The translations under genes and the position numbers were made by a program. 64,000 nt of DNA from a phage. Positions 7,701-44,938 of this stretch are shown piece after piece; within the stretch, counting starts at the first letter, position 1, and each line of letters opens with the position of its first letter. The notes below the pieces were generated by a model that was not told the DNA's origin, searched no databases, and worked only from the letters and a program-made list of their open reading frames with translations. The DNA is taken from the sequence record PZ445498.1. The stretch is one strand, 5' to 3'.

Positions 7701-8111
7701 TTACTTAGTAATAGCTCTGATAGCTTCTGCCAGATGAGCAGCTGCTTTACCGGTCAGCTTGTCGACGATCGTGTCGTCCAGGAAGTCCGGTGCTAAGCCA
7801 GCATCAGAGAATGCAGAGCGAAGATCGGAGTGAGCCTGAGCTTTGGAAGTACGAGAACCACCAGAAGCTTTTTCTCCAGTAGATGCGCTTGATTTAGAAG
7901 TAGAGCCAGCAGCTTTCTTGATATACAGACCTGCTTTGGTCAGCTTCATACGAAAACCGTTCGGAGTTACACCATTTTCCTGAGCAATTTCGCTAACAAT
8001 TTCCATGCTAACGCCCGGACGCTCATCTTCTGGGAATTGCTCCATACGAGCAACGTAGTCGGAAGACATTTTTTCGAACAGTTCATCAGTCCACTGAGTT
8101 GGAGTAGTCAT
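7701..8111 (-). CDS. hypothetical protein
   Basis: 136 aa ORF with AAGGAAA RBS and minus promoter at 8170-8198. Confidence 0.55.
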   Translation of the reverse strand: MTTPTQWTDELFEKMSSDYVARMEQFPEDERPGVSMEIVSEIAQENGVTPNGFRMKLTKAGLYIKKAAGSTSKSSASTGEKASGGSRTSKAQAHSDLRSAFSDAGLAPDFLDDTIVDKLTGKAAAHLAEAIRAITK

Positions 8112-8169
8112 ATTTTTCGATTTCCTTAATTAAGAATTAAACAGAATAGTTCTTTCAAACTATGAGAAT

Positions 8170-8198
8170 ATTATATCAAGAATTACAGGATTAAGCAA
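8170..8198 (-). promoter_or_regulatory. early promoter (minus) for gene 7701-8111
   Basis: Reverse complement TTGCTT-17-TATAAT. Confidence 0.65.
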
Positions 8199-8215
8199 CT
8201 GAAATTTTTCAGTAG

Positions 8216-30655: not shown

Positions 30656-31105
30656 ATGAAGGCAGCTTTGCTTTTAATAGCTGCCCTAACCTATAGCTTC
30701 AATAGTCATGCGACCTACGACTCAAAGCAGATTGATTGCATTGCAAAAAATATCTACTTCGAAGCACGAGGTGAGGGCACTAAAGGAATGATCGCAGTTG
30801 CACAGGTTACTAAAAACCGTGTTAACTCTGGTACTTTTCCTGATTCTTACTGTAAAGTAGTATATCAGTCTAACCAGTTCTCTTGGGTGGCCAAGAGACC
30901 AAAAGTTGATAAAACCGATGAGGCTTGGCAAGTTGCTAAGAATTTAGCTAGAGTGATATACTACGTTGATTTACCACAAGATCCAACACATGGAGCGTTA
31001 TACTTCCATAGTGGTAAAGATAAACCGTACTGGACAAAGAAGTTTAAGAAAACAACGAAGATTCAAGGCCATACGTTTTACAAGCCTGTGGTTAAGAAAA
31101 CTTAA
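30656..31105 (+). CDS. secreted cell-wall hydrolase-like protein (SleB/Hydrolase_2-like)
   Basis: Signal peptide MKAALLLIAALTYSFNSHA; motif FEARGE...GMIAVAQVTKNR...QFSW typical of SleB-type hydrolases. Confidence 0.6.
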   Translation: MKAALLLIAALTYSFNSHATYDSKQIDCIAKNIYFEARGEGTKGMIAVAQVTKNRVNSGTFPDSYCKVVYQSNQFSWVAKRPKVDKTDEAWQVAKNLARVIYYVDLPQDPTHGALYFHSGKDKPYWTKKFKKTTKIQGHTFYKPVVKKT

Positions 31106-31114
31106 AAAATTCGA

Positions 31115-31143
31115 TTGCTTAAAGCCTTAAATTTCTGTATAAT
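31115..31143 (+). promoter_or_regulatory. early promoter
   Basis: TTGCTT-17-TATAAT plus TATAAATTGATGAGAGGAAAG leader. Confidence 0.75.
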
Positions 31144-31175
31144 AACTGTATAAATTGATGAGAGGAAAGCGAACA

Positions 31176-31346
31176 ATGAAAACCTTAGTAATTATTGGTG
31201 TTAACACTCACGGTATTCGTACTACGAAAACAGTTAAAACTACTAACGTTGCTGAAATTACTACAAATCCTAAGAAGTTTGATTTCGCCAAAGTCTCAGC
31301 AGTTATGACAGAACAATCTTTTAACCAAGCACTGGGAATTAAATAA
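31176..31346 (+). CDS. hypothetical small protein
   Basis: 56 aa from ATG 31176 after GAGAGGA RBS. Confidence 0.4.
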   Translation: MKTLVIIGVNTHGIRTTKTVKTTNVAEITTNPKKFDFAKVSAVMTEQSFNQALGIK

Positions 31347-31789
31347 TGGAAGAGAATATTCTAGATGTTTTGCGTAGGGCTTTGCAGGAATCCAAGTTTA
31401 ATGGTTCTGATAAAGAAGTAGCTAAAAGCTACCAGACCATAATCGGAGATCTTCAGCGTGTTGATAAAGACTTCATTACTTCTGAACAGTTTGTATCTTA
31501 TCTAAAAGCTCAACTGAAAAGCATTAATCAGACGAAAGCTAAACTTCACGGTCAAGACCTTGATAATTATAGCTTGCAGTCTGCTCAGTATGAATATATA
31601 CTGAACAAATGGTTACAGCAGTATCTGCCGCCTCAGTTATCTGATTCTGAGATTCGCAAATACTTTGCAGAATTAGTTAAGTTGAATCCTGGGATTACAA
31701 AAGGTATGCTGATGAAAGCGATTAAGGAAGAGTTTCCTGGTCGTTACGACGGTGGCATTGCTGCTCAGGTTGCTGGCGAATTTAATTAA
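31346..31789 (+). CDS. hypothetical protein
   Basis: 147 aa ORF. Confidence 0.5.
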   Translation: MEENILDVLRRALQESKFNGSDKEVAKSYQTIIGDLQRVDKDFITSEQFVSYLKAQLKSINQTKAKLHGQDLDNYSLQSAQYEYILNKWLQQYLPPQLSDSEIRKYFAELVKLNPGITKGMLMKAIKEEFPGRYDGGIAAQVAGEFN

Positions 31790-31797
31790 AAATTGAT

Positions 31798-31826
31798 TTG
31801 CTAAACGCCTCAAAATTCTGTATAAT
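31798..31826 (+). promoter_or_regulatory. early promoter with no ORF downstream
   Basis: TTGCTA-17-TATAAT plus TCATAAATTAGAGAACAG leader, but no RBS/ATG; drives the ORF-free 1 kb segment. Confidence 0.7.
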
Positions 31827-31832
31827 AGATTC

Positions 31833-32854
31833 ATAAATTAGAGAACAGCGAGCCGATTACGCTGAGTGAGTTTAGTGATTCCTACTAGGATAGCTATTCC
31901 ACTGAATAGAGTCGGTGAGTTTAGAATGATCACCTGTTAGAGTTCCGAGTCCAGTCCGGTATATCCGGCCAAGTGACTAGAGTAACGAATATAGGTTCGA
32001 GACTTCTTGTAAAACTCGGGAGCTGTCCCGAAACCTCGTAAACTCTTCTCTAATTTATACAAAACGATGGTTCTCAACATGAGCTAGGCACAGTGTGAAA
32101 TACGGTGCGTGTCCCAGAGGTAGAAGACTGAAGGTTGGGCTTGAGAAAACCATGTAACTTTCAACGCTGACCCGTCTAGGATGCAAGTCAAGACGTATGT
32201 ATACCACAATGCGGCGATTGTCCATCGAATAGTGGGGTGTCGAACCGACTTATGTGATAACACTGCCAGATGCTCACAGGCTGACATTGAGCTTCGCTGC
32301 TCCTTCTGGAAAGAATCGGATAACTCGGGCTTATACCGGATAAGCATTCGCTGCTGGAGTACATACTATGACGGTTCAGGAGGTACGCCGCCTGATCAGT
32401 ATTAGGTTAGAATCGAAACAGCTAAACCACGAAAGGACTGGGATGCTTGCTGAGCTACCCCTACCTGATACATGCCTCAGCTAACTTCGCATCGAAAATC
32501 GGAGGTGCGATTTAACCAGACCGCGTAACTATGAGAGTGGGAAATGGTAAACTGTATAGCTTGACTCTAACTTAGTTAGGTGGCTACAGAGCCTTAATGG
32601 GACAGTCTAGATACTTAGTGAACCGCGGATAACGCTAAGAATACTGTGAAAATACTATGGGAGTCATGACCCGGATGTTGCCCGATCGCTATAGTGGCGA
32701 ATAACCACGAAGTCACCTTGACTTAAACTGGAAGATATTGTTCGACGGAAGGGCTGAAGAGCTTAATCTGAGGGGGCTGACCCTACCTACCGCCGGGTAT
32801 CTTTAAGAGTTCTTACGAGAGTTCTTAAACATACCTAAACATTAAGGAATACTA
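31833..32854 (+). ncRNA. candidate large non-coding RNA (promoter-driven ORF-free segment)
   Basis: Consensus early promoter at 31798-31826 with no RBS or ORF for ~1 kb; stops in all frames; G+C higher than flanks. Confidence 0.3.
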
Positions 32855-33364
32855 ATGAATCTAGGAACTACTTGTATATTTGATCACAGAGAAATGTGTT
32901 GCCCACATATCCTCTACGTAGTTCACTTTGCAGAGCGTCTTACGCTGGATGAAGCTCGTGAGAAAATGAGTGGAATTACTGGATATGACTTCCGTGAAGG
33001 TGAATACTTTAGCGTTGCTCTTGATTACATTGACAATACCCGTCTTTATCATCTAGTGCAGCTAGGGGAAGAAACTGATGAAGTGAAAATGGCGAAAGAT
33101 ACTTTACGTCGTTATCGTCCTCAGATTCTAGAACGTACACTTCGTGGTGAGTTCAGTGACCCATTCTTTTTGAAGTGTTATGATGCAGACGCTAATGAGT
33201 ACTTGGGGCGACAAAGGTTTTACAAAGAAATCAAAGAGTTTGTGGGTGAAAAATACGAAGCACTACTCGTTGATTCTAGAGCACGACGTGCAGCTAAAAA
33301 TGCTGAGAAATCAGCTAAAGCAGCACTAGAAAGTCAAACCAAACTGAACGAAATCGTTAAGTGA
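32855..33364 (+). CDS. hypothetical protein
   Basis: 169 aa ORF with AAGGAAT RBS. Confidence 0.5.
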   Translation: MNLGTTCIFDHREMCCPHILYVVHFAERLTLDEAREKMSGITGYDFREGEYFSVALDYIDNTRLYHLVQLGEETDEVKMAKDTLRRYRPQILERTLRGEFSDPFFLKCYDADANEYLGRQRFYKEIKEFVGEKYEALLVDSRARRAAKNAEKSAKAALESQTKLNEIVK

Positions 33365-33372
33365 TCTAATTT

Positions 33373-33447
33373 CGGGGTGTAGTCTAAGGGATAGGCAGGA
33401 GTCTTCTAAATTCCTTTATGCAGGTTCGAATCCTGTCACCTCGGCCA
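33373..33447 (+). tRNA. tRNA-Arg (anticodon TCT)
   Basis: Acceptor CGGGGTG/CACCTCG, D stem GTCT/AGGC, anticodon arm GGAGT-CTTCTAA-ATTCC, T arm GCAGG-TTCGAAT-CCTGT, GCCA 3' end. Confidence 0.8.
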
Positions 33448-33480
33448 ACTTTAATAACTGTAACTAAACAAAGGAAATAT

Positions 33481-34425
33481 ATGTTTACTAAAAACACTAA
33501 AGAACTAACTTCTGAGCAAAAAGTAATTCGTACTATTAAACGTTGGGGTGTTGGTGCTGCTGTTGGTCTTGGTGCTCTTATTCTGGCTCTCAATTCCTAT
33601 ACAGTTGTTCAGGATGGTACTGTTAAGACCCAAACCTTCCTGGGTAAAGTTAGCCCTAATCCTGTATTGCCAGGCTTCCATATTGTTAACCCATTTGCTT
33701 CTTTTGATACTTTTAGTACGAAAGATATTTCCATGAAACTGGATAAACTTCAGGTGCCTAGCCAGGATAAGTTTAAGTCTACTGTTGACATTACCGTTAT
33801 GTTGCAGTTTGATGGTGCTAAAGCTCCTATGAACCGTGTTAACGCAGGTACTCAGGATCAAGCTCTGAACAAGTACGTTGAAGAGAAGATGCTGTCTACG
33901 ATTCGTGAGTTTGGTAAGTCTGTACCAAAAGCACAAGATCTGTTCGACGCTAAGATTCAGGCTCAACTGCAAACCGCTATTCAGCAAGAAGTAGAAGAGT
34001 ACGCGCGTCCTTATGGCTACACCGTTAAGCAAGTATTCCTTCAGGATATTACTCTGCCACCGGTAATCATGGAACAGGTACAGAACACTAAAGTTCGTGA
34101 AGAACAAGTTAACGCTGCAAAAGCTGAACTAGCTCGTGTTGAACAAGAAGCACAGCAGAAAGTTAAGCAAGCTGAAGCTGATCGTTCTGCTCGTGAAAAT
34201 ATGGCAGTAGCTAACGAACGTGACGCAGATGCTAAACTGTACGCAGCTAAGAAAGAAGCTGAAGCTAACGCCGCTCTGCAACGTACCATTACTCCTGAAA
34301 TGATTCGTTGGAAGCAGCTGGAAGTTGAAATGCTTCGTGCTGAAAAATACCAAGGTGGTGTACCGCAGACTGTTGTTGGTACTGGCTACGATGGTCAAAT
34401 GATCATGGATATGCGTAACAAGTAA
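33481..34425 (+). CDS. SPFH/band-7 (prohibitin/HflK-like) membrane protein
   Basis: N-terminal TM anchor then PHB-like domain and long coiled-coil; start ATG 33481 (track ATG 33418 lies inside the tRNA). Confidence 0.7.
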   Translation: MFTKNTKELTSEQKVIRTIKRWGVGAAVGLGALILALNSYTVVQDGTVKTQTFLGKVSPNPVLPGFHIVNPFASFDTFSTKDISMKLDKLQVPSQDKFKSTVDITVMLQFDGAKAPMNRVNAGTQDQALNKYVEEKMLSTIREFGKSVPKAQDLFDAKIQAQLQTAIQQEVEEYARPYGYTVKQVFLQDITLPPVIMEQVQNTKVREEQVNAAKAELARVEQEAQQKVKQAEADRSARENMAVANERDADAKLYAAKKEAEANAALQRTITPEMIRWKQLEVEMLRAEKYQGGVPQTVVGTGYDGQMIMDMRNK

Positions 34426-34448
34426 TAGTTACACGTAATCTTCGAACC

Positions 34449-34485
34449 AAGCCCGCGTTCCCTCCGAGAGCGCGGGCTTTTCTGT
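34449..34485 (+). terminator. rho-independent terminator after SPFH gene
   Basis: Hairpin AAGCCCGCG...CGCGGGCTT followed by TTTCTG. Confidence 0.65.
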
Positions 34486-34629
34486 ATTTAAGGCAAAAGA
34501 AAAGCCCATAAGTTATTCAACTAAGGTCTTTAGTATTTAATTCTTTAGAATCGCATACTATTGTTGCTGCAACAACGTGCTACCATTAAATGCCCTGAGA
34601 TTTTTCCACTAAAAAGTTTAAAAATTCGT

Positions 34630-34658
34630 TTGCTTGAATGCTAAATTCTCTGTATAAT
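34630..34658 (+). promoter_or_regulatory. early promoter for nadR-pnuC
   Basis: TTGCTT-17-TATAAT plus TTATAAATTTGAGAGAGGAATC leader. Confidence 0.75.
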
Positions 34659-34688
34659 ATATTTATAAATTTGAGAGAGGAATCAAAC

Positions 34689-35744
34689 ATGATTAAGACT
34701 GGTCTAGTAATTGGTAAGTTCGCACCCTTAACGCGTGGCCATATTAACCTAATAAATACAGCAGCAACTATGTGTGAACGAGTTATTATTGTAGTTAGTC
34801 ATGATAATCGTTGGCTGGATAAGCAGAACACACGTGATCAGGAAGTATTACAGTTAAAGAATCGTCTTCGTTGGTTAGAACAAACTTACGCGGATATTGA
34901 GCACGTTTCGGTAGAGTATATTATTGAAGATGATATTCCTGAATATCCGAATGGTTGGCCGGAATATGCTAGAATCCTTAATGAAAATTACGGACATTTA
35001 CCTGAGATCACCATTTTCTCTAGCGAACTAGACTATGATGCAGAATATAAGAAATATCTGCCGAAGTTTGGTCATTATATTGTAGATTCTGATCGGACTC
35101 GTGTTCCAATCTCAGCTACAATGATTCGTAATGATCTTATGAAGTATTGGGAGTTTCTTCCTAGCGTAGTTCGTAAAGATTACGTGCGTAGGGTTGTAAT
35201 CATTGGGACTGAAAGCTCAGGAAAGACTACTTTAACAAAATACCTTGCGAAGCTATACAACACTTCGTGGGTAGAAGAATATGGTCGAACGTATTGTGAA
35301 GTTGATCTAGTTGGTAACGAAAATCTGCTTACCAGCGAAGATTATAGTAAAATTGCGTTCAGACACAAAGAGCTAGAGTTTGAGGCAGAACGTACTGCAA
35401 ATAAGATCATGTTTGTGGATACAAATGCTTTTATTACTGAGTTCTACCACAGACTTTATGAACATCGTAAGAACCCTGTGGTTACAGCAATTGCAAAAGA
35501 AGAACATTACGATTTAGTAATTGTTCTAGCGCCCACTGTCAAGTGGGTAGATGATGGTTTACGTATTAACTCCGATCGTTCAATTACTTCTGAACTGTTC
35601 GAGCAGATGAAGAAAGAATTTCCAAATCAGTTCCCTGAAGGGCGTACTGTGTACATCGACTCCCCGGACTACAAAGTTCGTATGGACGAAGCAGTAAACG
35701 CAGTAGACTGGCTGATTCATCACTTTAACGTTGGAGAGTTTTAA
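34689..35744 (+). CDS. nadR: NadR-like bifunctional NMN adenylyltransferase / ribosylnicotinamide kinase
   Basis: Nucleotidyltransferase motif GKFAPLTRGH, ISATMIR motif, C-terminal P-loop GTESSGKTT. Confidence 0.8.
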   Translation: MIKTGLVIGKFAPLTRGHINLINTAATMCERVIIVVSHDNRWLDKQNTRDQEVLQLKNRLRWLEQTYADIEHVSVEYIIEDDIPEYPNGWPEYARILNENYGHLPEITIFSSELDYDAEYKKYLPKFGHYIVDSDRTRVPISATMIRNDLMKYWEFLPSVVRKDYVRRVVIIGTESSGKTTLTKYLAKLYNTSWVEEYGRTYCEVDLVGNENLLTSEDYSKIAFRHKELEFEAERTANKIMFVDTNAFITEFYHRLYEHRKNPVVTAIAKEEHYDLVIVLAPTVKWVDDGLRINSDRSITSELFEQMKKEFPNQFPEGRTVYIDSPDYKVRMDEAVNAVDWLIHHFNVGEF

Positions 35745-35745
35745 T

Positions 35746-36423
35746 ATGACTAACTATCTCGTAAATGACTTTAAAAACTGGAAACCTCTGGAATATCTGT
35801 GGCTGTTCATAGCGGTTGCCTTCATTAGTTTAGCTAACTATAATGGTACACCTCTAGATTGGGCTACTGCGATAACCAACGTAGTTTGTGTTATTTTGGT
35901 TGCTAAAGGACGTGTTTCTAACTATATTTGGGGCTTAGTTGGTGTTCTTACCTATGGTATTACAGCTTTAAACGCAGATCTTTATGGTAACGCTGCACTA
36001 AACCTGCTATACTACGTTCCTATGCAGTTTTATGGAATGTACTTATGGCATAAAAATAAGCCAAGTAATCTGCCAGATGTTCCAACTAAGATTCTGACTA
36101 AAGTCCAAGCTCTGCTGACTCTAGGGATTCTAGCAGTAGCCACGTTAGGGTATGGTAGTTTCTTAGCTACTACGGCTGATCCATTCCCAATGTTGGATGC
36201 ATTTACTGCGGTAGGTAGTGTGATCGCTATGTGGCTTATGGTTAAGCAGTATGCCGAGCAGTGGCTGATCTGGATTGCTATTAACATTGGTACTGTGTAC
36301 ATTTGGCTTGTAACTACTCAATCTACAGGTGCATCTTATGCAATCCTAGCAATGTGGCTAGTATTCTTAGGTAACTCTATTATGGGAGCCTATAAAGGAT
36401 ACTTTGTACGCGTTAACAAATAA
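35746..36423 (+). CDS. pnuC: PnuC-like nicotinamide riboside transporter
   Basis: Multi-pass membrane protein with PnuC-like ...LYYVPMQFYGMYLW... region; translationally coupled to nadR. Confidence 0.75.
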   Translation: MTNYLVNDFKNWKPLEYLWLFIAVAFISLANYNGTPLDWATAITNVVCVILVAKGRVSNYIWGLVGVLTYGITALNADLYGNAALNLLYYVPMQFYGMYLWHKNKPSNLPDVPTKILTKVQALLTLGILAVATLGYGSFLATTADPFPMLDAFTAVGSVIAMWLMVKQYAEQWLIWIAINIGTVYIWLVTTQSTGASYAILAMWLVFLGNSIMGAYKGYFVRVNK

Positions 36424-36431
36424 AGTAGTTA

Positions 36432-36458
36432 TAGCCCTCTAAGCGAGGGCTATTATAC
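36432..36458 (+). terminator. rho-independent terminator after pnuC
   Basis: Hairpin AGCCCTC-TAAGC-GAGGGCT followed by ATTATA; T-run weak. Confidence 0.55.
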
Positions 36459-36470
36459 AGAAATTTTCAC

Positions 36471-36499
36471 TTGCTTAATATAGAAAATTTCTATATAAT
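36471..36499 (+). promoter_or_regulatory. early promoter
   Basis: TTGCTT-17-TATAAT plus TTATAAATTCGAGAGAGGAATC leader. Confidence 0.75.
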
Positions 36500-36529
36500 A
36501 TATTTATAAATTCGAGAGAGGAATCAAAC

Positions 36530-36826
36530 ATGAAACGCATTGTACTTGCACTGACTCTAGTATCTACTTCTGTATTTGCTGCTCCGCAACAGGAACTTTG
36601 TCAAGTTCAGGTTTGTAATAAGTTAGAACGATTTACTTTGGATATTTGGTCACACATTAAAGATAATATGGGTGAACAGTGTTTTGATATTGTTCTGCCA
36701 AAAGAGCAGGCTGTTCCTGGTGCTATTCTTAGCTCAGAGTCACGTTGGTGGCAGGGTTCTTCTATCAATCCAACTAAGAAGTCAGTGACACGTATCAAAC
36801 AAGTATATCAGTGCAAGGTTCAGTAA
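36530..36826 (+). CDS. hypothetical secreted protein
   Basis: Signal peptide MKRIVLALTLVSTSVFA; 98 aa. Confidence 0.5.
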   Translation: MKRIVLALTLVSTSVFAAPQQELCQVQVCNKLERFTLDIWSHIKDNMGEQCFDIVLPKEQAVPGAILSSESRWWQGSSINPTKKSVTRIKQVYQCKVQ

Positions 36827-36834
36827 AATTTCAC

Positions 36835-36863
36835 TTGCTTAATGTCGAAATTTTCTGTATAAT
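36835..36863 (+). promoter_or_regulatory. early promoter for HNH gene and first tRNAs
   Basis: TTGCTT-17-TATAAT plus TCATAAATTCGGAAGATTAGG leader. Confidence 0.7.
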
Positions 36864-36896
36864 ATATTCATAAATTCGGAAGATTAGGAACTATTT

Positions 36897-37406
36897 ATGC
36901 TAGACTATGAGTCTATACTTTATAGATTCCGTTTAGAAGATGGTGTGCTGGTGTGGAATCCGCTCTCCGGAAACTCCAGAGAGGAGAAGATATTTAATAC
37001 TAAGTTTGCCAATAAACCTGCGGGATCTTTGCACAAAAGCTCTGGGTATATCAGAGTTAACGTTGATCACCAAGATTACTTAGCTCATATCATAGTATTT
37101 ATACTATATTATGGGTATAGGCCGGAAATGATTGATCATAAAGACTGCAATAAGTTAAACATACATCCTTTAAATTTAAGAGCAGCGGATAGTACCACTA
37201 ATACTCATAATGCTAGTAAATCTTCTAGGAATACTAGCGGATTTAAGGGAGTATCCTACCACAAAGCATCTGGTCAGTGGCAGGGTAGAATAATGTTTAA
37301 AGGTAAGTCATACTCCGCAGGGCTGCACAGTACTCCTGAAGCAGCAAATGAAGCTCTAATTCAACTGAGAGAGAAACTTCATGGGGAATACGCCCGAAAT
37401 AATTAA
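36897..37406 (+). CDS. HNH homing endonuclease with AP2-like domain
   Basis: Paralog of 21899-22417 (IDHKDCNKLN, GEYARNN tail); directly upstream of the tRNA cluster. Confidence 0.7.
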   Translation: MLDYESILYRFRLEDGVLVWNPLSGNSREEKIFNTKFANKPAGSLHKSSGYIRVNVDHQDYLAHIIVFILYYGYRPEMIDHKDCNKLNIHPLNLRAADSTTNTHNASKSSRNTSGFKGVSYHKASGQWQGRIMFKGKSYSAGLHSTPEAANEALIQLREKLHGEYARNN

Positions 37407-37495
37407 GGAAGAATAGCATAACGGTATTGCAGCAGATTGCTAATCTGTCGGTTTGAAACATAGCCTTGTGGGTTCGAATCCCACTTCTTCCTCCA
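37407..37495 (+). tRNA. tRNA-Ser (anticodon GCT)
   Basis: Acceptor GGAAGAA/TTCTTCC, anticodon arm GCAGA-TTGCTAA-TCTGT, long variable arm, T arm GGGTTCGAATCCC, CCA. Confidence 0.8.
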
Positions 37496-37500
37496 AATTT

Positions 37501-37578
37501 GGTTCTCAAGCTCATTTGGTATGAGCCGTCGCCTCATAAGCGAAAGGTAGGTAGGTTCGAATCCTCCGGGAGCCACCA
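37501..37578 (+). tRNA. tRNA with CAT anticodon (Met or Ile-lysidine type)
   Basis: Acceptor GGTTCTC/GGGAGCC, D stem GCTC/GAGC, anticodon loop CTCATAA, T loop TTCGAAT, CCA; one T-stem mismatch. Confidence 0.6.
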
Positions 37579-37595
37579 ATTAACTAGGAGACTAT

Positions 37596-37781
37596 ATGTC
37601 TAAGTTTCAAGAGCTTAAACAAGAACTAGAAGAGTGCATGTGTACTCACTGCCAAGGAACAGGTACTATTAATGATGCTGAACCTGGCGATATGCGTTTT
37701 GAAGAGTGGGAATGCGCAGCATGTAATGGTTCTGGTATTAATCCAGAATTTGGAATTTCTCTAGATATTGATCGAGGTTAA
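37596..37781 (+). CDS. hypothetical small Zn-ribbon protein
   Basis: 61 aa with CTHCQGTG and CAACNGSG Cys pairs. Confidence 0.5.
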   Translation: MSKFQELKQELEECMCTHCQGTGTINDAEPGDMRFEEWECAACNGSGINPEFGISLDIDRG

Positions 37782-37782
37782 C

Positions 37783-38115
37783 ATGGATATTTACACTACT
37801 CCAGCAGTAAATCTGATTGGCTCTTGCCTTGTGCATTTCCGCTTCTTCCAAACGGATGATAGCAAAGAGGAATATACTTATCCTCTGATGGATTTTCAGA
37901 TTGAGGATTTCTTTCGTGAAGTTCGTAATATTTCTGGAAACTTCTTCTATGGTATGGATAAGGAAGATTTTGACATTGAGTTCCCTATAATCTCTCGTTA
38001 TTTCCTAGAACAGTCTGACGCTCATTTTAGTAAGATTGAGCATATGGAAGTAGCATGGGCAATTCAGTTCGAGATTACTGGTTTTGCTCGATATATTCAG
38101 GGTTACGAACTCTAA
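37783..38115 (+). CDS. hypothetical protein
   Basis: Start ATG 37783 overlapping upstream stop. Confidence 0.45.
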   Translation: MDIYTTPAVNLIGSCLVHFRFFQTDDSKEEYTYPLMDFQIEDFFREVRNISGNFFYGMDKEDFDIEFPIISRYFLEQSDAHFSKIEHMEVAWAIQFEITGFARYIQGYEL

Positions 38116-38124
38116 AGATTACAT

Positions 38125-38201
38125 GGGGGTGTAATCGAATTGGCATAGGTACTGGACTTAAAATTCAGGTTTTGTGGGTTCGAATCCCACCACCCCTACC
38201 A
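38125..38201 (+). tRNA. tRNA, class-I length, anticodon TAA (Leu-type anticodon)
   Basis: Acceptor GGGGGTG/CACCCCT, anticodon arm CTGGA-CTTAAAA-TTCAG, T arm GTGGG-TTCGAAT-CCCAC, A73, CCA; imperfect D stem. Confidence 0.5.
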
Positions 38202-38216
38202 AATTAAGGAAATAAA

Positions 38217-38339
38217 ATGAAAGCTATTAAGAAAGCACTACGTAAATTTATGTACTGTCGTTTTCATAGCATCAAGACTTCAACTAATGGTACGACTTAT
38301 GATCGCTATGATCCTAAGTTTGGCTTACATTCTAAATAA
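38217..38339 (+). CDS. hypothetical small basic peptide
   Basis: 40 aa ORF with AAGGAAATAAA RBS right after the tRNA; speculative. Confidence 0.3.
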   Translation: MKAIKKALRKFMYCRFHSIKTSTNGTTYDRYDPKFGLHSK

Positions 38340-38352
38340 CTGGAGAAAACAA

Positions 38353-38559
38353 ATGGCTAATCCTGAAATTACGGCACAACGCTTTATGCTGAAAGGAATT
38401 ATTGCTGAAGCAGGCATGACAGAAGAAGTTACAGATTTTCAAAAGCAATTCCTCAATATTCTCACTCAAGCTAAAGAGCTAGGAGAGAAGGAACATGGCG
38501 CGGCTATTATGGCAATCACGTTGGTTGGGCTTGATCTGGCTGAAGAATCAGGAGTTTAA
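38353..38559 (+). CDS. hypothetical small protein
   Basis: ATG 38353 after GGAG RBS; track ORF 38287 is an in-frame upstream extension. Confidence 0.45.
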   Translation: MANPEITAQRFMLKGIIAEAGMTEEVTDFQKQFLNILTQAKELGEKEHGAAIMAITLVGLDLAEESGV

Positions 38560-38589
38560 CTCCTCCAAGCAGAAATTTTAAAAATGTAC

Positions 38590-38619
38590 TTGCTTTTTAC
38601 TTAAGATTTCTGTTATAAT
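38590..38619 (+). promoter_or_regulatory. early promoter
   Basis: TTGCTT-18-TATAAT plus TATAAATTGATGAAGGAG leader. Confidence 0.65.
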
Positions 38620-38649
38620 AGTTATATAAATTGATGAAGGAGTTAACGA

Positions 38650-39288: not shown

Positions 39289-39359
39289 TGGGGTACGCAT
39301 AGGTTGCTAGTGGGCCTCCAAAACCCATGAAAAGGTTTCGAATACCTTTACCCCTGCCA
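39289..39359 (+). tRNA. tRNA-Trp (anticodon CCA), short form
   Basis: Anticodon loop CTCCAAA, T arm AAGGT-TTCGAAT-ACCTT, 3' end TACCCCT-G-CCA; 1-72 is U-U and D arm short. Confidence 0.55.
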
Positions 39360-39365
39360 ATATTT

Positions 39366-40352: not shown

Positions 40353-40934
40353 ATGCACGGAATATCCTTACCCATTCCAGGGTTTGAGGAGTACTTAGTA
40401 AGTTTGGATGGGTTAGTATTTAGTATCAAATCAAACAAAATACTAACCCCAATAACCAGTAATTACGGATACTTATCTATACGTCTCCATAAAAATGGTC
40501 AACAGAGAAATACCGGTGTACATAGGATTTTAGCATGTGCATTTAAGAAATTACCAAGTCTAGACTCTGAACTAGAAGTTGACCATATTAACACAGACAT
40601 TACTTATTGGGGTCTTAATAACTTACAAGTGCTCACAAAAGAGCAGCATCTAGAAAAGACTTTAAAAGACAAAGGATTTAGTAAACTAAACCATGATAAT
40701 TGTTGTAAGGATTGTGGTAAAGCTATTTCTTTAAAAGCTGAAAAATGTCAGGAGTGCTCTTCATATAAACCAAAAGATATCTCTATAACTAAAGAAATAA
40801 TCGAGGTTACAGTAAGAGAGCTAGGCTGGTCAGGTGCAGGGAGAAAGTTAAGTTATTCAGATAATGGGTTGCGTAAAAGATACACTTCTTTAGGAGGCAA
40901 TCCTAAAGAACTTAAAAAGTTAAAGGTACTATAG
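40353..40934 (+). CDS. HNH homing endonuclease
   Basis: HNH core ELEVDHINTD and C-terminal Cys4 CCKDCGK...CQEC; stop codon lies in first bases of tRNA-Asp. Confidence 0.7.
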   Translation: MHGISLPIPGFEEYLVSLDGLVFSIKSNKILTPITSNYGYLSIRLHKNGQQRNTGVHRILACAFKKLPSLDSELEVDHINTDITYWGLNNLQVLTKEQHLEKTLKDKGFSKLNHDNCCKDCGKAISLKAEKCQECSSYKPKDISITKEIIEVTVRELGWSGAGRKLSYSDNGLRKRYTSLGGNPKELKKLKVL

Positions 40935-40999
40935 TCTAACGGTTAGGATACTCCCCTGTCACGGGAGAGGTAGGGTTTCGATTACCCTTAGTACCGCCA
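40925..40999 (+). tRNA. tRNA-Asp (anticodon GTC)
   Basis: Acceptor GGTACTA/TAGTACC, anticodon arm CTCCC-CTGTCAC-GGGAG, T arm AGGGT-TTCGATT-ACCCT, G73, CCA. Confidence 0.85.
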
Positions 41000-41005
41000 A
41001 ATTAT

Positions 41006-41081
41006 ACATCCATAGCTCAATTGGTTAGAGCTACCGCCTCTTAAGCGGTAGGTTCTAGGTTCAAGTCCTAGTGGGTGTACC
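41006..41081 (+). tRNA. tRNA-Lys (anticodon CTT)
   Basis: Acceptor ACATCCA/TGGGTGT, D stem GCTC/GAGC, anticodon arm ACCGC-CTCTTAA-GCGGT, T arm CTAGG-TTCAAGT-CCTAG, CCA. Confidence 0.8.
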
Positions 41082-41295
41082 AAACATCAGAGCAGCGTGA
41101 TGTACTGCAAAGACCCAAAGTCCGGGGTGGACTTCTTGATTCAAAGGAGCAGGCATTAATTATCATTCTAGCGTGGTGGAGAGGGGACACCAGCTTGCCG
41201 AGGGTAGAAGCTCGTTCGATTCGAGTGAAAGAATGGTTCTCGTAAATCCGCACAAGTGATAGTAGGTTCAAGTCCTACCTAGATTGACTCATTAT

Positions 41296-41369
41296 GCGTT
41301 CGTAGTTAAAAGGTATAATTTTTGGTTGCCAACCAGAAGTTGAGGGTTCGATTCCCTCCGACCGCACCA
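41296..41369 (+). tRNA. tRNA-Gly (anticodon GCC)
   Basis: Acceptor GCGTTCG/CGACCGC (one mismatch), D stem GTTA/TAAT, anticodon arm TTTGG-TTGCCAA-CCAGA, T arm GAGGG-TTCGATT-CCCTC, CCA. Confidence 0.7.
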
Positions 41370-41624
41370 AATCTTTGTAGGTCGCGTCACTTATAATGGG
41401 ACTACAGGGTAAACAAGGCGATGAGTTTCCGGCCGGTTCTAGTCGCTGAAAATCCTCCCGACCAGGTAGGTGTAGGTAAACGAAAGTTTACTTATTGAGT
41501 AGGTTCCGATAGATCGGCGAGTCTATTCTGGCATTTAAGAGAAGTCTCGCAAACTTCTTTGTCAGCCGTGGGGCTTGAACCCTCCAGGTGGCCTACGCAA
41601 TAAGTAAATTTATTAAAAATTCAT

Positions 41625-41653
41625 TTGCTATTTTGCTTAATTCTCTGTATAAT
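41625..41653 (+). promoter_or_regulatory. early promoter
   Basis: TTGCTA-17-TATAAT plus TTATAAAGTGTTGAGAAGGAAAG leader. Confidence 0.7.
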
Positions 41654-41685
41654 ATATCTTATAAAGTGTTGAGAAGGAAAGCAAA

Positions 41686-41883
41686 ATGAAAAAAGTTATG
41701 TTACTATCTGTATTCTTACTCACTGGTTGCTTTAAATTTGATTCAACCATTAACAAGGAGTATGAATTTGCAAAAAATTTCTGTGGTGGAGAGAGTAAAA
41801 TACAAAACTTCAGTATACACTCTACAATTCCTAGTACCATTTACTGCGTAGATGGACGGAATATTAATATTCCACCACAATAA
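41686..41883 (+). CDS. hypothetical lipoprotein
   Basis: Signal peptide with lipobox LLTGC. Confidence 0.5.
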   Translation: MKKVMLLSVFLLTGCFKFDSTINKEYEFAKNFCGGESKIQNFSIHSTIPSTIYCVDGRNINIPPQ

Positions 41884-44462: not shown

Positions 44463-44557
44463 GGTAGGTCAATCCAATGGCTGGCGCTGGACTCCGACTT
44501 GAAATCGGTTGATCGTAGTGATACGGTGTAAGGGTTCGATCCCCTTACCTACCTCCA
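44463..44557 (+). tRNA. tRNA-Ser (anticodon TGA)
   Basis: Acceptor GGTAGGT/ACCTACC, anticodon arm CCGA-CTTGAAA-TCGG, long variable arm, T arm AAGGG-TTCGATC-CCCTT, CCA. Confidence 0.7.
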
Positions 44558-44938
44558 AATCTTGAAGTATGCCGGAATCGGTAGACGGGGCTTCCTAAAG
44601 GGCGTAAGGGGAACATCCACTCCTCATAAGATACCCGAAAATGAGGCTGAGATAAATGGTCTATCTCATGAAGGTTCAAGTCCTTCTGCTTCTTGATACA
44701 TTAATGGCTCAAAGTGTAACGGTGCTATTTGATGTTCTTAGTAAGACTTTCCCGACATGCGTTCGGGAGTAAGCTGCTAAGGCTAGAGTAGAAGAGTTTC
44801 GGAGAGCCGCCACAATTGAGTATTATTAGAGAGCATTCGCAAGAAAGAATCAGGAGAAAAACCTGTGCGCAGAATGACTAACTTTGGTACCTTAGACGGC
44901 CAAATGGAGGACTGATCATCCCCTAATAGTATTCAATT

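What the first reader, a model, noticed from the sequence alone, without database searches (positions are those of the whole stretch)
41082..41295. ORF-free spacer with tRNA-like hairpins lacking CCA
About 215 bp between tRNA-Lys and tRNA-Gly has no ORF but contains two T-arm-like hairpins (GCTCG-TTCGATT-CGAGT near 41230 and GTAGG-TTCAAGT-CCTAC near 41262) without matching acceptor stems or CCA. These could be decayed tRNA genes or processed small stable RNAs.
Basis: seen in the sequence. Interest (0 to 1): 0.5.

Follow-up and report, generated by a model that had tools for sequence, protein, structure and literature searches.

The report
Phage T5 RNA2: anticodon-less tRNA mimic
The "empty" gap between two phage tRNA genes holds the counterpart of phage T5's RNA2, a tRNA-shaped RNA in which a conserved 55-base module replaces the anticodon loop; the gene is already annotated in T5, but what it does is unknown.

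Summary
The window is a T5-like phage (99.5% identical to Escherichia phage IrmaTschudi). The 213-bp spacer has two parts. Bases 41083-41163 are an 81-nt optional cassette of unknown role. Bases 41164-41288 are the ortholog of T5 gene rna2 (T5s06, "tRNA-like stable RNA with unknown functions"), which is also annotated in BF23.

The second (41262-41278) is its T-arm. The first (41210-41226) lies inside a conserved 55-nt module (41198-41252) that takes the place of the anticodon loop.

A covariance model finds the same module in differently sequenced tRNA scaffolds: T5-like phages, T4-like Acinetobacter phages and three uncultured phage contigs. In that alignment 97% of cells are paired and 23 of 33 pairs show compensatory changes. 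It is therefore a conserved structured RNA, not a decayed tRNA. It is not coding, and the evidence is against an intron-containing tRNA.

The most likely biogenesis is excision from the tRNA precursor by RNase P. The most likely role is as a non-decoding tRNA mimic, but that is inferred. A viable T5 deletion strain lacks it, so it is an accessory gene. The element is already known; its function is open.

The parts
41083..41163 (+). Module A: an 81-nt ORF-free cassette between the CCA end of tRNA-Lys(CUU) and the 5' end of RNA2. Its role is unknown. It is probably released as a by-product of processing or as a separate small RNA.
   Evidence: It is an indel: in L016 and L009, tRNA-Lys(CUU) is followed by RNA2 after 5-6 nt. 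A 95-97% identical copy lies in Klebsiella Sugarlandvirus phages, between another CCA-ending tRNA-like RNA and tRNA-Phe. It aligns weakly with the unannotated 125 nt upstream of rna2 in T5. Its fold is not significant (z = -0.5).
41164..41288 (+). Ortholog of phage T5 rna2 (RNA2), a 125-nt tRNA-shaped non-coding RNA.
   Evidence: It aligns with T5 NC_005859 32959-33083 (T5s06) with the same 5' end (C of CATTCTAG) and the same 3' end. BF23 rna2 lies in the same order: RNA2, tRNA-Gly, RNAIV. Covariance model R1 scores it 150.7 bits.
41164..41171 (+). Acceptor-like stem, 5' strand (CATTCTAG).
   Evidence: It pairs with 41279-41286 in 7 of 8 positions, with a U-U mismatch at 41166/41284. The stem is a perfect 8 bp in most T5-like phages. 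The sequences are completely different but still complementary in L029 (GACTTTG/CAAAGTC) and L166 (TACTGAC/GTCAGTA).
41174..41192 (+). D-arm-like hairpin TGGTG-GAGAGGGGA-CACCA, with a GG-containing loop.
   Evidence: Compensatory changes occur within T5-like phages (G-C to U-A at the inner pair; U-A to C-G in L009) and in L029 and L166. 96% of cells are paired.
41193..41197 (+). Anticodon-stem equivalent, 5' strand (GCTTG).
   Evidence: It pairs with 41253-41257 (CAAGT). In 22 sequences, all cells with letters on both sides are paired and all 5 pairs have double-sided changes.
41198..41252 (+). Conserved 55-nt module that replaces the 7-nt anticodon loop: CCGAGGGTAGAA, then hairpin 1, then GAAAGAATGGTTCTCGTAAATCCGCA.
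   Evidence: It is near-invariant in more than 400 T5-like phage records and 77-86% identical in Acinetobacter T4-like phages (Acj133, Acj9, AB1I1M-1), L029, L156 and L166.
41210..41226 (+). It is a T-arm-like hairpin inside the module.
   Evidence: 97% of cells are paired and 3 of 5 pairs have double-sided changes.
41202..41205 (+). Candidate inner helix 'Pi', 5' strand (GGGT). It pairs with 41246-41249 (ATCC).
   Evidence: RNAalifold predicts it on the hand alignment. The Y-R pair covaries: C-G in 14 sequences, U-A in 7, one mismatch, arising in two separate clades. The competing helix ATGG/CCGC is only 77% paired. This helix is tentative.
41246..41249 (+). Candidate inner helix 'Pi', 3' strand (ATCC).
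41253..41257 (+). Anticodon-stem equivalent, 3' strand (CAAGT).
41262..41278 (+). It abuts the acceptor 3' strand directly, as in a tRNA.
   Evidence: 98% of cells are paired and 3 of 5 pairs have double-sided changes. It is a perfect 5-bp stem here.
41279..41286 (+). Acceptor-like stem, 3' strand (CTAGATTG).
41287..41295 (+). 3' tail and trailer (ACTCATTAT) up to the 5' end of tRNA-Gly. No CCA is encoded.
   Evidence: The tails in relatives read ACA, ACT or ACC(A).

Best explanation
The spacer is not empty DNA or tRNA wreckage. Its last 125 nt (41164-41288) encode the ortholog of phage T5 RNA2, a non-coding RNA built on a tRNA cloverleaf. It has an acceptor stem, a D-like arm with a GG loop, an anticodon-type stem and a T-arm. 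The 7-nt anticodon loop is replaced by a conserved 55-nt module that carries its own T-loop-type hairpin.

Shown here: homology to T5 and BF23 rna2; the cloverleaf and the module, both supported by covariation; the absence of a credible ORF; no promoter-like or terminator-like site on the + strand inside the spacer.

Inferred: it is transcribed with tRNA-Asp, tRNA-Lys and tRNA-Gly as one precursor. RNase P recognises the stacked acceptor stem and T-arm and cuts at 41163/41164. RNase P cutting at tRNA-Gly (41295/41296), followed by exonucleolytic trimming, sets the 3' end.

Because it has the tRNA body but no anticodon, it cannot decode. It most likely acts as a tRNA mimic that presents the conserved module to a tRNA-binding partner. 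The candidate I favour is a host tRNA-targeting defence nuclease or tRNA-handling enzyme, with RNA2 as decoy or inhibitor. That would make it an accessory, host-range-type function.

My confidence is about 0.9 in the identity and structure, about 0.7 in the processing route, and about 0.3 in the decoy or mimic function.
For: - **Identity.** The window is 99.5% identical to Escherichia phage IrmaTschudi, a T5-like phage. T5 annotates rna2 (T5s06) and BF23 annotates rna2 at the homologous place. The pairwise alignment gives identical ends.
- **Structure.** Covariance model R1 finds 22 members. On their alignment 97.3% of cells pair and 23 of 33 pairs have double-sided changes. None of 500 shuffles reaches this, and slid controls reach at most 41% paired.
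- **Scaffold versus module.** The acceptor, D, anticodon-type and T stems have entirely different sequences in L029 and L166, while the module is kept.
- **tRNA likeness.** Real tRNAs score 13-27 bits end to end against R1 with the module deleted, so the scaffold is tRNA-like.
- **Transcription context.** No promoter-like or terminator-like site lies on the + strand within the spacer. The next promoter-like site (41625-41653) matches T5 promoter P13a, downstream of rnaIV.
- **Accessory status.** T5Mos carries the deletion 30661-38625, which removes rna2, and still grows (PMC11464382).
- **Precedent for the arms race.** T5 tRNA-Lys overcomes PARIS cleavage of host tRNA-Lys (PMC11464382).
Against: - 'Stable RNA' rests on the depositors' GenBank note.
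- Single-sequence folding is no better than shuffles (z = -0.1). The covariation model (-26.6 kcal/mol) is not the minimum-free-energy fold (-32.1).
- The window copy has a U-U mismatch in the acceptor stem.
- No CCA is encoded, so a defined 3' end and any aminoacylation are uncertain.
- The Acinetobacter phage copies have no convincing acceptor stem. The module, rather than the tRNA body, may therefore be the functional part.
- The alignment used for the pair counts was fitted to the structure by Infernal, which leans towards it.
- No partner protein was identified. The decoy role is an inference from architecture and context only.
Confidence: 0.55

Rival explanations
1. Decayed tRNA gene(s): the hairpins are remnants of one or two dead tRNA genes, drifting without function.
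For: There is no anticodon loop and no encoded CCA. ARAGORN and Rfam do not call it. The window copy has a mismatch in the acceptor stem. The region is dispensable in T5Mos.
Against: The 55-nt module is near-invariant in more than 400 T5-like phage records and is retained at 77-86% identity in unrelated T4-like Acinetobacter phages and uncultured phages. All five cloverleaf helices keep pairing through double-sided changes. Pseudogenes would accumulate disruptive changes.
Confidence: 0.06
2. An intron-containing tRNA gene: a 47-49-nt intervening sequence is removed to give a working tRNA. Relaxed ARAGORN proposes anticodon CCG (Arg) in T5, L166 and Acj133, and CCA (Trp) in AB1I1M-1.
For: ARAGORN with introns allowed and an 80% threshold calls such genes, with ends that match the acceptor stem. 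The residual loop would read N-U-CCG-C-A, with a U at position 33.
Against: The proposed anticodon and intron differ between members: Pro in the window, Phe in L029, Gln in L156, Ser in Acj9. Position 37 would be a pyrimidine. At 55 nt or less the insert is far too small for a group I intron, and no intron family matched in Rfam at E <= 10. From my own knowledge, no bulge-helix-bulge splicing system is known in these phages or hosts. The 'intron' is the most conserved part, and the depositors list the RNA at 125 nt. T5 and this window already carry tRNA-Trp and two tRNA-Arg genes.
Confidence: 0.04
3. A cis-acting processing or spacer element: the tRNA-like fold exists only to direct RNase P or RNase E cuts that mature the neighbouring tRNAs. 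The excised piece itself has no role in trans.
For: It lies between tRNA genes, 9 nt from tRNA-Gly, and in L016 and L009 only 5-6 nt after tRNA-Lys. tRNA-like 'punctuation' is an established principle in mitochondrial transcripts (my own knowledge).
Against: In L029 the element stands alone, with no tRNA gene anywhere in the 10-kb locus. A punctuation role does not explain a conserved 55-nt module. Neighbouring tRNAs elsewhere in the same array are 5-9 nt apart and need no such element.
Confidence: 0.12
4. The module is the functional unit and the tRNA scaffold is only a stabilising carrier. The module could be an aptamer-like or T-loop-based domain that docks on a tRNA elbow or a protein, possibly the phage YqeY-like protein.
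For: The Acinetobacter phage copies keep the module, the anticodon-type stem and the T-arm but lack a convincing acceptor stem. The module contains two T-loop-like motifs (TTCGATT; GGTTCNCGTAAATCC). In L029 a YqeY-family ORF (Pfam E = 6.5e-16) ends about 200 nt upstream of the RNA, and T5-like phages all encode a YqeY-like protein, at window 31343-31786.
Against: YqeY-like genes are common in many tRNA-rich phages. None was found in Acinetobacter phages with either query, so the co-occurrence is not specific. Nothing here tests T-loop docking.
Confidence: 0.2
5. A small protein-coding gene. Several GenBank records place a 'hypothetical protein' over this stretch.
For: Mechanical ORFs of 56 aa (+) and 67 aa (-) exist. 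Some records annotate a CDS here.
Against: There is no Pfam match. Close relatives differ by 1-nt indels in the D-loop. The only variable base in the most conserved stretch falls at a second codon position of the + frame (L, H or P), and stop positions are not conserved.
Confidence: 0.01

Closest known systems
Phage T5 RNA2 (gene rna2, T5s06; also annotated in BF23, AJ604530, and Salmonella phage 5, AJ604531)
   Same: It is homologous over the full 125 nt, with the same ends and the same neighbourhood (RNA2, tRNA-Gly, RNAIV in BF23). The depositors already call it 'tRNA-like'.
   Different: The window copy belongs to a sequence subtype with GGGT...AAAT instead of GGGC...AAGT. It has a 9-nt D-loop and a U-U mismatch in the acceptor stem, and it is preceded by tRNA-Lys(CUU) and the 81-nt module A rather than by ORF T5.067.
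Phage T4 RNA C and RNA D (species 1 and 2 stable RNAs in the T4 tRNA cluster)
   Same: These are also small RNAs co-located with phage tRNA genes. RNA C ends in a T-arm plus an imperfect acceptor-like stem. Their function is still unknown after decades.
   Different: There is no sequence or model similarity. Covariance model R1 finds nothing at rnaC or rnaD in the T4 locus at E <= 1, and the alignment shows no shared module.
Canonical tRNA (Rfam RF00005)
   Same: It shares the acceptor stem stacked on the T-arm, the TTCRANN T-loop, a D-type arm with GG, a 5-bp anticodon-type stem and a 4-nt variable region. Real tRNAs align end to end with the RNA2 model.
   Different: A 55-nt module replaces the 7-nt anticodon loop. 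There is no anticodon and no encoded CCA, and C8 replaces U8. ARAGORN and Rfam do not call it.
tmRNA tRNA-like domain and bacterial Y-RNA-like YrlA (RF02553)
   Same: These are also RNAs that keep the acceptor/T-arm half of a tRNA and replace the anticodon arm with another functional domain. This resemblance rests on my own knowledge of the two families.
   Different: There is no tag reading frame or pseudoknots, and no Ro-binding helix. The Rfam scores are negligible: tmRNA 5.8 bits on the T-loop only, and the YrlA hit lies on tRNA-Asp and tRNA-Lys, not on RNA2. The relaxed ARAGORN 'permuted tmRNA' call spans two real tRNAs and is spurious.

Membership tests
Phage T5 RNA2 (rna2, T5s06) | Full-length sequence homology with the same 5' and 3' ends | tested here: met
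   The pairwise alignment with T5 32959-33083 places the ends at C41164 and about 41288. Model R1 scores it 150.7 bits over 1-124/124.
Phage T5 RNA2 (rna2, T5s06) | Position in the tRNA array, upstream of tRNA-Gly(GCC) and rnaIV | tested here: met
   BF23 has the order RNA2, tRNA-Gly, RNAIV, promoter P13a, tRNA-Pro. The window has the same order.
Phage T5 RNA2 (rna2, T5s06) | Accumulates as a stable RNA in infected cells | not testable with these tools
   This rests only on the depositors' note. No paper with the data could be found in the library.
Canonical tRNA | Acceptor stem continuous with a 5-bp T-stem and a 7-nt T-loop | tested here: met
   41164-71/41279-86 plus 41262-78.
Canonical tRNA | 7-nt anticodon loop with U33 and an anticodon | tested here: not met
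   The 5-bp stem 41193-97/41253-57 closes a 55-nt module. ARAGORN and Rfam make no call.
Canonical tRNA | 3' CCA, encoded or added | tested here: inconclusive
   It is not encoded here (G-ACT). L013 encodes G-ACCA. Post-transcriptional addition cannot be tested.
tRNA pseudogene | Loss of constraint: disrupted helices and no conservation beyond close relatives | tested here: not met
   97.3% of cells are paired and 23 of 33 pairs show compensatory change across T5-like, T4-like and uncultured phages.
Intron-containing bacterial tRNA (group I intron) | A self-splicing intron of 200 nt or more with a group I core in the anticodon loop | tested here: not met
   The insert is 55 nt and no intron family matches in Rfam at E <= 10. 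The relaxed ARAGORN intron calls disagree between members.
tmRNA (standard or permuted) | tRNA-like domain plus a tag reading frame and pseudoknots; match to an Rfam model | tested here: not met
   RF00023 scores 5.8 bits on the T-loop only, and RF04321 scores 14.7 bits on tRNA-Gly. No reading frame is conserved.
T4 RNA C / RNA D | Sequence or structure homology to rnaC or rnaD | tested here: not met
   Model R1 gives no hit on T4 rnaC or rnaD, and MAFFT shows no shared blocks.

The most novel reading that the evidence does not exclude
RNA2 may define a previously undescribed, horizontally spread family of phage RNAs: a tRNA scaffold carrying a conserved 55-nt 'warhead' in place of the anticodon loop. 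It is found in T5-like siphoviruses, T4-like Acinetobacter myoviruses and uncultured phages of about 165 kb. In this reading it acts in trans as a tRNA-mimic inhibitor or decoy of a tRNA-targeting host defence or tRNA-handling factor, or as the RNA subunit of a phage ribonucleoprotein, for example with the YqeY-like protein. That would give a first function to the 'stable RNAs' of phage tRNA clusters.
Probability: 0.2. Interest if true: 0.75.

Novelty: already known. Interest (0 to 1): 0.42.

Why it matters
Phage tRNA clusters have been known since the 1970s to encode extra small stable RNAs, such as T4 RNA C and D and T5 RNA I to IV and RNA1 to 3. Their roles are still unknown. Phage tRNAs are now recognised as counter-measures against tRNA-cleaving defence systems, for example T5 tRNA-Lys against PARIS.

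This work shows that RNA2 is one structured RNA with a tRNA body and a conserved module in place of the anticodon. It also shows that the same module sits in unrelated scaffolds in unrelated phage families. That turns an annotation note into a testable hypothesis with a defined target for mutagenesis.

For genome annotation, it shows that this 'spacer' should not be called a hypothetical protein, as several GenBank records do.

Tried and rejected
- **Rfam.** Neither the gathering scan nor the scan at E <= 10 gave any family for the spacer other than trivial T-loop matches.
- **Single-sequence folding.** Neither strand of the whole spacer, nor any sub-part, folds better than shuffles. Thermodynamics alone neither supports nor refutes the structure.
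- **RNA2 as the missing tRNA-Trp.** Rejected. The T5 tRNA-Trp homolog is present at 39290-39360 and the tools simply do not call it.
- **Relaxed ARAGORN.** The 'intron tRNA' calls disagree between family members, and the 'permuted tmRNA' call spans tRNA-Lys to tRNA-Gly. Both were rejected.
- **Homology to T4 RNA C and D.** None found.
- **Loose pattern scans.** 14-16 specified bases returned mostly chance hits: L030-L036, L037-L114, L155, L164 and L172. These were inspected and discarded.
- **A shared neighbouring protein.** Only a YqeY-like ORF next to the L029 copy emerged. Such genes are widespread in tRNA-rich phages and were not detected in the Acinetobacter phages, so this is a weak lead only.
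- **Complementarity or homology of the module to E. coli genomes.** No blastn match at E <= 10. For a 65-nt query against 28 Gb this is an insensitive test.
- **Repeats within the window.** Neither module A nor RNA2 is repeated, apart from the 15-nt T-arm identity with tRNA-Lys.
- **Literature.** No accessible paper describes RNA2.

Full report
**What the window is.** ARAGORN and Rfam find 26 and 25 tRNA genes respectively, all on the + strand between 33.3 and 46.6 kb. The stretch 40900-41700 is 99.5% identical to Escherichia phage IrmaTschudi and similar to hundreds of T5-like phages of the family Demerecviridae. The finding therefore sits in the well-known tRNA gene region of a T5-like phage.

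**Checking the observation.** tRNA-Lys(CUU) ends at 41082 with an encoded CCA, and tRNA-Gly(GCC) starts at 41296.
- A scan for T-arm-type hairpins (5-bp stem, TTCRANN loop, G-C closing pair) finds 27 on the + strand and none on the - strand. Of these, 23 lie in called tRNAs and four outside, two of them here. Shuffled windows give 0.27 on average. The hairpins are not chance.
- Only mechanical ORFs cross the spacer (56 aa on +, 67 aa on -). They have no Pfam match. Close relatives differ by single-base indels inside them, so coding is excluded, although several GenBank records annotate a 'hypothetical protein' here.
- The statement that there is no acceptor stem is wrong. CTAGATTG (41279-86) follows the second hairpin directly and pairs with CATTCTAG (41164-71) in 7 of 8 positions. 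Most relatives read CTAGAATG, a perfect 8 bp.

**The spacer is composite.** BLAST of the spacer alone shows two independently distributed parts.
- Bases 82-213 of the spacer (41164-41295) occur in more than 400 T5-like phage records.
- Bases 1-80 (41083-41162, 'module A') occur together with them in only about 54 records. They also occur on their own, at 95-97% identity, in Klebsiella Sugarlandvirus phages. There they lie between another CCA-ending tRNA-like RNA and tRNA-Phe.
- In two close relatives (L016, L009), tRNA-Lys(CUU) is followed by the second part after 5-6 nt, with no module A.
- Module A is therefore an optional 81-nt cassette. It aligns weakly with the unannotated 125 nt upstream of rna2 in T5 and has no significant fold. 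I cannot assign it a role.

**Identity of the second part.** The RefSeq record of T5 (NC_005859) annotates eight misc_RNA genes in its tRNA region. One is rna2 (T5s06, 32959-33083), described as a 'tRNA-like stable RNA with unknown functions'.
- The window aligns with it from the C of CATTCTAG (41164) to about 41288.
- The BF23 tRNA-region record annotates the same gene in the order RNA2, tRNA-Gly(GCC), RNAIV, promoter P13a, tRNA-Pro. The window has the same order. Its 41497-41599 aligns with T5 rnaIV, and a promoter-like site at 41625-41653 corresponds to P13a.
- The element is thus already annotated in the type phage. I found no accessible paper that describes it.

**Anatomy.** Comparing unique T5-like variants with distant copies gives one consistent cloverleaf.
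- **Window coordinates.**
  - Acceptor stem: 41164-71 / 41279-86.
  - Linker: CG.
  - D-like arm: TGGTG-GAGAGGGGA-CACCA (41174-92).
  - Anticodon-type stem: GCTTG / CAAGT (41193-97 / 41253-57).
  - Variable region: GATA.
  - T-arm: 41262-78.
- **The module.** The anticodon-type stem closes a 55-nt module (41198-41252) instead of a 7-nt loop. The module reads CCGAGGGTAGAA, then the T-arm-like hairpin 41210-26, then GAAAGAATGGTTCTCGTAAATCCGCA.
- **Distant copies.** They carry the same module in scaffolds of unrelated sequence.
  - L029 is a 164-kb viral contig with acceptor GACTTTG/CAAAGTC, a canonical-looking D-arm and stem CCCAT/ATGGG.
  - L166 is a metagenome contig with TACTGAC/GTCAGTA and CAGACCA/TGGTCTG.
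  - L156 is a 167-kb contig related to Acinetobacter phage Acj9, judged by shared ORFs.
  - Acinetobacter phages Acj133, Acj9 and AB1I1M-1 are T4-like (Acj133 and Acj9 are classified in Straboviridae).
- **Context.** In the Acinetobacter phages the element again lies in the tRNA array. In L029 it stands alone, with no tRNA gene in the 10-kb locus.

**Formal test of the structure.** I built a covariance model from seven T5-like sequences with the cloverleaf and hairpin 1 as its structure.
- It recovers 22 distinct members. The window scores 150.7 bits, L029 105 bits and the others 59-71 bits.
- It also matches genuine tRNAs end to end at 13-27 bits with the module deleted. This shows independently that the scaffold is tRNA-like.
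- On the resulting alignment 97.3% of cells form standard pairs and 23 of 33 pairs have changes on both sides. None of 500 shuffles reaches any of the five measures. Sliding the 3' partners by 1-3 columns drops pairing to 31-41%.
- In the anticodon-type stem all cells with letters on both sides are paired, and all five pairs covary.
- Inside the module, RNAalifold on my hand alignment proposes a helix GGGY/RUCC (41202-05 / 41246-49). Its Y-R pair switches between C-G (14 sequences) and U-A (7) in two separate clades, with one mismatch. The competing ATGG/CCGC hairpin is only 77% paired. I regard the inner fold as tentative.
- Two caveats apply. The alignment was fitted to the structure by Infernal, and the distant lineages are few.
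- Single-sequence energies are uninformative: z = -0.1, and the covariation model sits at -26.6 kcal/mol against a minimum of -32.1.

**How it most likely works.**
- **Shown.** It is a conserved, structured, non-coding element with a tRNA body and no anticodon loop. It has no promoter-like or terminator-like site of its own on the + strand.
- **Inferred from established tRNA biology.** It is transcribed within the polycistronic tRNA precursor. RNase P recognises the stacked acceptor stem and T-arm and cuts its 5' end. RNase P cutting at tRNA-Gly nine bases downstream, followed by exonucleolytic trimming, defines its 3' end. CCA might then be added by the host enzyme, as for T4 tRNAs that lack an encoded CCA.
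- **Function.** It cannot decode. The most economical reading is a tRNA mimic that presents the conserved module to a tRNA-binding partner. Two facts point to an accessory, host-interaction role.
  - Phage tRNAs are now known to counter tRNA-cleaving defences. T5 tRNA-Lys against PARIS is the example.
  - The viable strain T5Mos lacks the region 30661-38625, which includes rna2 (PMC11464382).
  - I favour a decoy or inhibitor role, but I give that step only about 0.3.
- **Alternative emphasis.** The module may be the functional unit and the scaffold only a carrier. This is suggested by the Acinetobacter copies, which lack a convincing acceptor stem, and by the two T-loop-like motifs in the module.
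- **A weak lead.** A YqeY-family ORF lies about 200 nt upstream of the L029 copy, and T5-like phages all encode a YqeY-like 'tRNA amidotransferase' homolog (window 31343-31786). Such genes are common in tRNA-rich phages and were not found in the Acinetobacter phages.

**Rivals.**
- **Decayed tRNA genes.** Conservation and covariation contradict this.
- **Intron-containing tRNA.** Relaxed ARAGORN suggests it. However, the proposed anticodons disagree between members, position 37 would be a pyrimidine, and the insert is too small for a group I intron, with no Rfam intron match. The 'intron' is also the most conserved part.
- **Pure processing 'punctuation'.** This does not explain the module or the stand-alone L029 copy.
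- **tmRNA-like readings.** They fail on Rfam scores and on the lack of a conserved reading frame.
- **T4 RNA C and D.** These are functional analogues in context only. The model finds nothing at their loci. Their roles are likewise unknown.

**Verdict.**
- The 'processed small stable RNA' reading is essentially right, and the 'decayed tRNA' reading is not.
- The element is the already annotated T5 RNA2, so as a discovery it is not new.
- What this analysis adds is threefold: the one-RNA cloverleaf-plus-module architecture, its covariation support, and its presence in unrelated phage families. Together these make the old question of what these RNAs do directly testable.

Noticed in passing
window 39290-39360: This is the homolog of T5 tRNA-Trp(CCA) (T5t20). 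It has an unusual T-loop (TTTCGAATACC). Neither ARAGORN nor Rfam calls it, so the window's tRNA set is under-counted.
   Followed up: partly
window 44464-44557: A tRNA-Ser(UGA)-like gene with a perfect acceptor stem GGTAGGT/ACCTACC, a discriminator base and CCA, a CTTGAAA anticodon loop and a long variable arm. ARAGORN and Rfam do not call it. It corresponds by position to T5 tRNA-Ser1.
   Followed up: partly
window ~44560-44935: Homologs of the T5 stable RNAs RNA1 (tRNA-like, T-arm at 44670-44686), RNAI and RNAIII, lying between tRNA-Ser and tRNA-His. RNA1 also looks like a tRNA scaffold with a large insertion.
   Followed up: partly
window 41497-41599: Homolog of T5 rnaIV (T5s05, 'stable RNA with unknown functions'). 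Its ends GTAGGTT/GGCCTAC can pair like an acceptor stem.
   Followed up: partly
window 41370-41496: A 127-nt ORF-free segment between tRNA-Gly and rnaIV that is absent from T5. Its fold is weakly better than shuffles (z = -1.6), and it contains a 10-bp hairpin at about 41472-41495.
   Followed up: no
L173 607-700 (Klebsiella phage AmPh_EK80): An unannotated RNA of about 94 nt that ends in CCA, with acceptor-like ends GGGACTT/AAGTTCC. It lies immediately upstream of the module A copy.
   Followed up: no
L168 668-769 and L169 685-764 (Acinetobacter phages Acj9, AB1I1M-1): Just downstream of the RNA2-like element lies another uncalled tRNA-like RNA that ends in CCA (GGAAAG... / ...CTTTCCGCCA).
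   Followed up: no
L001 (T5) 8085-8210, - strand: The unannotated 125 nt upstream of T5 rna2 are enclosed by a perfect 10-bp long-range stem (TTTCAGTGCA / TGCACTGAAA). This suggests yet another structured RNA.
   Followed up: no
window 40353-40934: An HNH-type homing endonuclease ORF (193 aa) whose 3' end overlaps the first 10 nt of tRNA-Asp (40925-40999).
   Followed up: no
L156 7053-7127: ARAGORN calls a tRNA with a CTA (amber-reading) anticodon in the tRNA array of an Acj9-like phage contig. The RNA2-like element follows it immediately.
   Followed up: no
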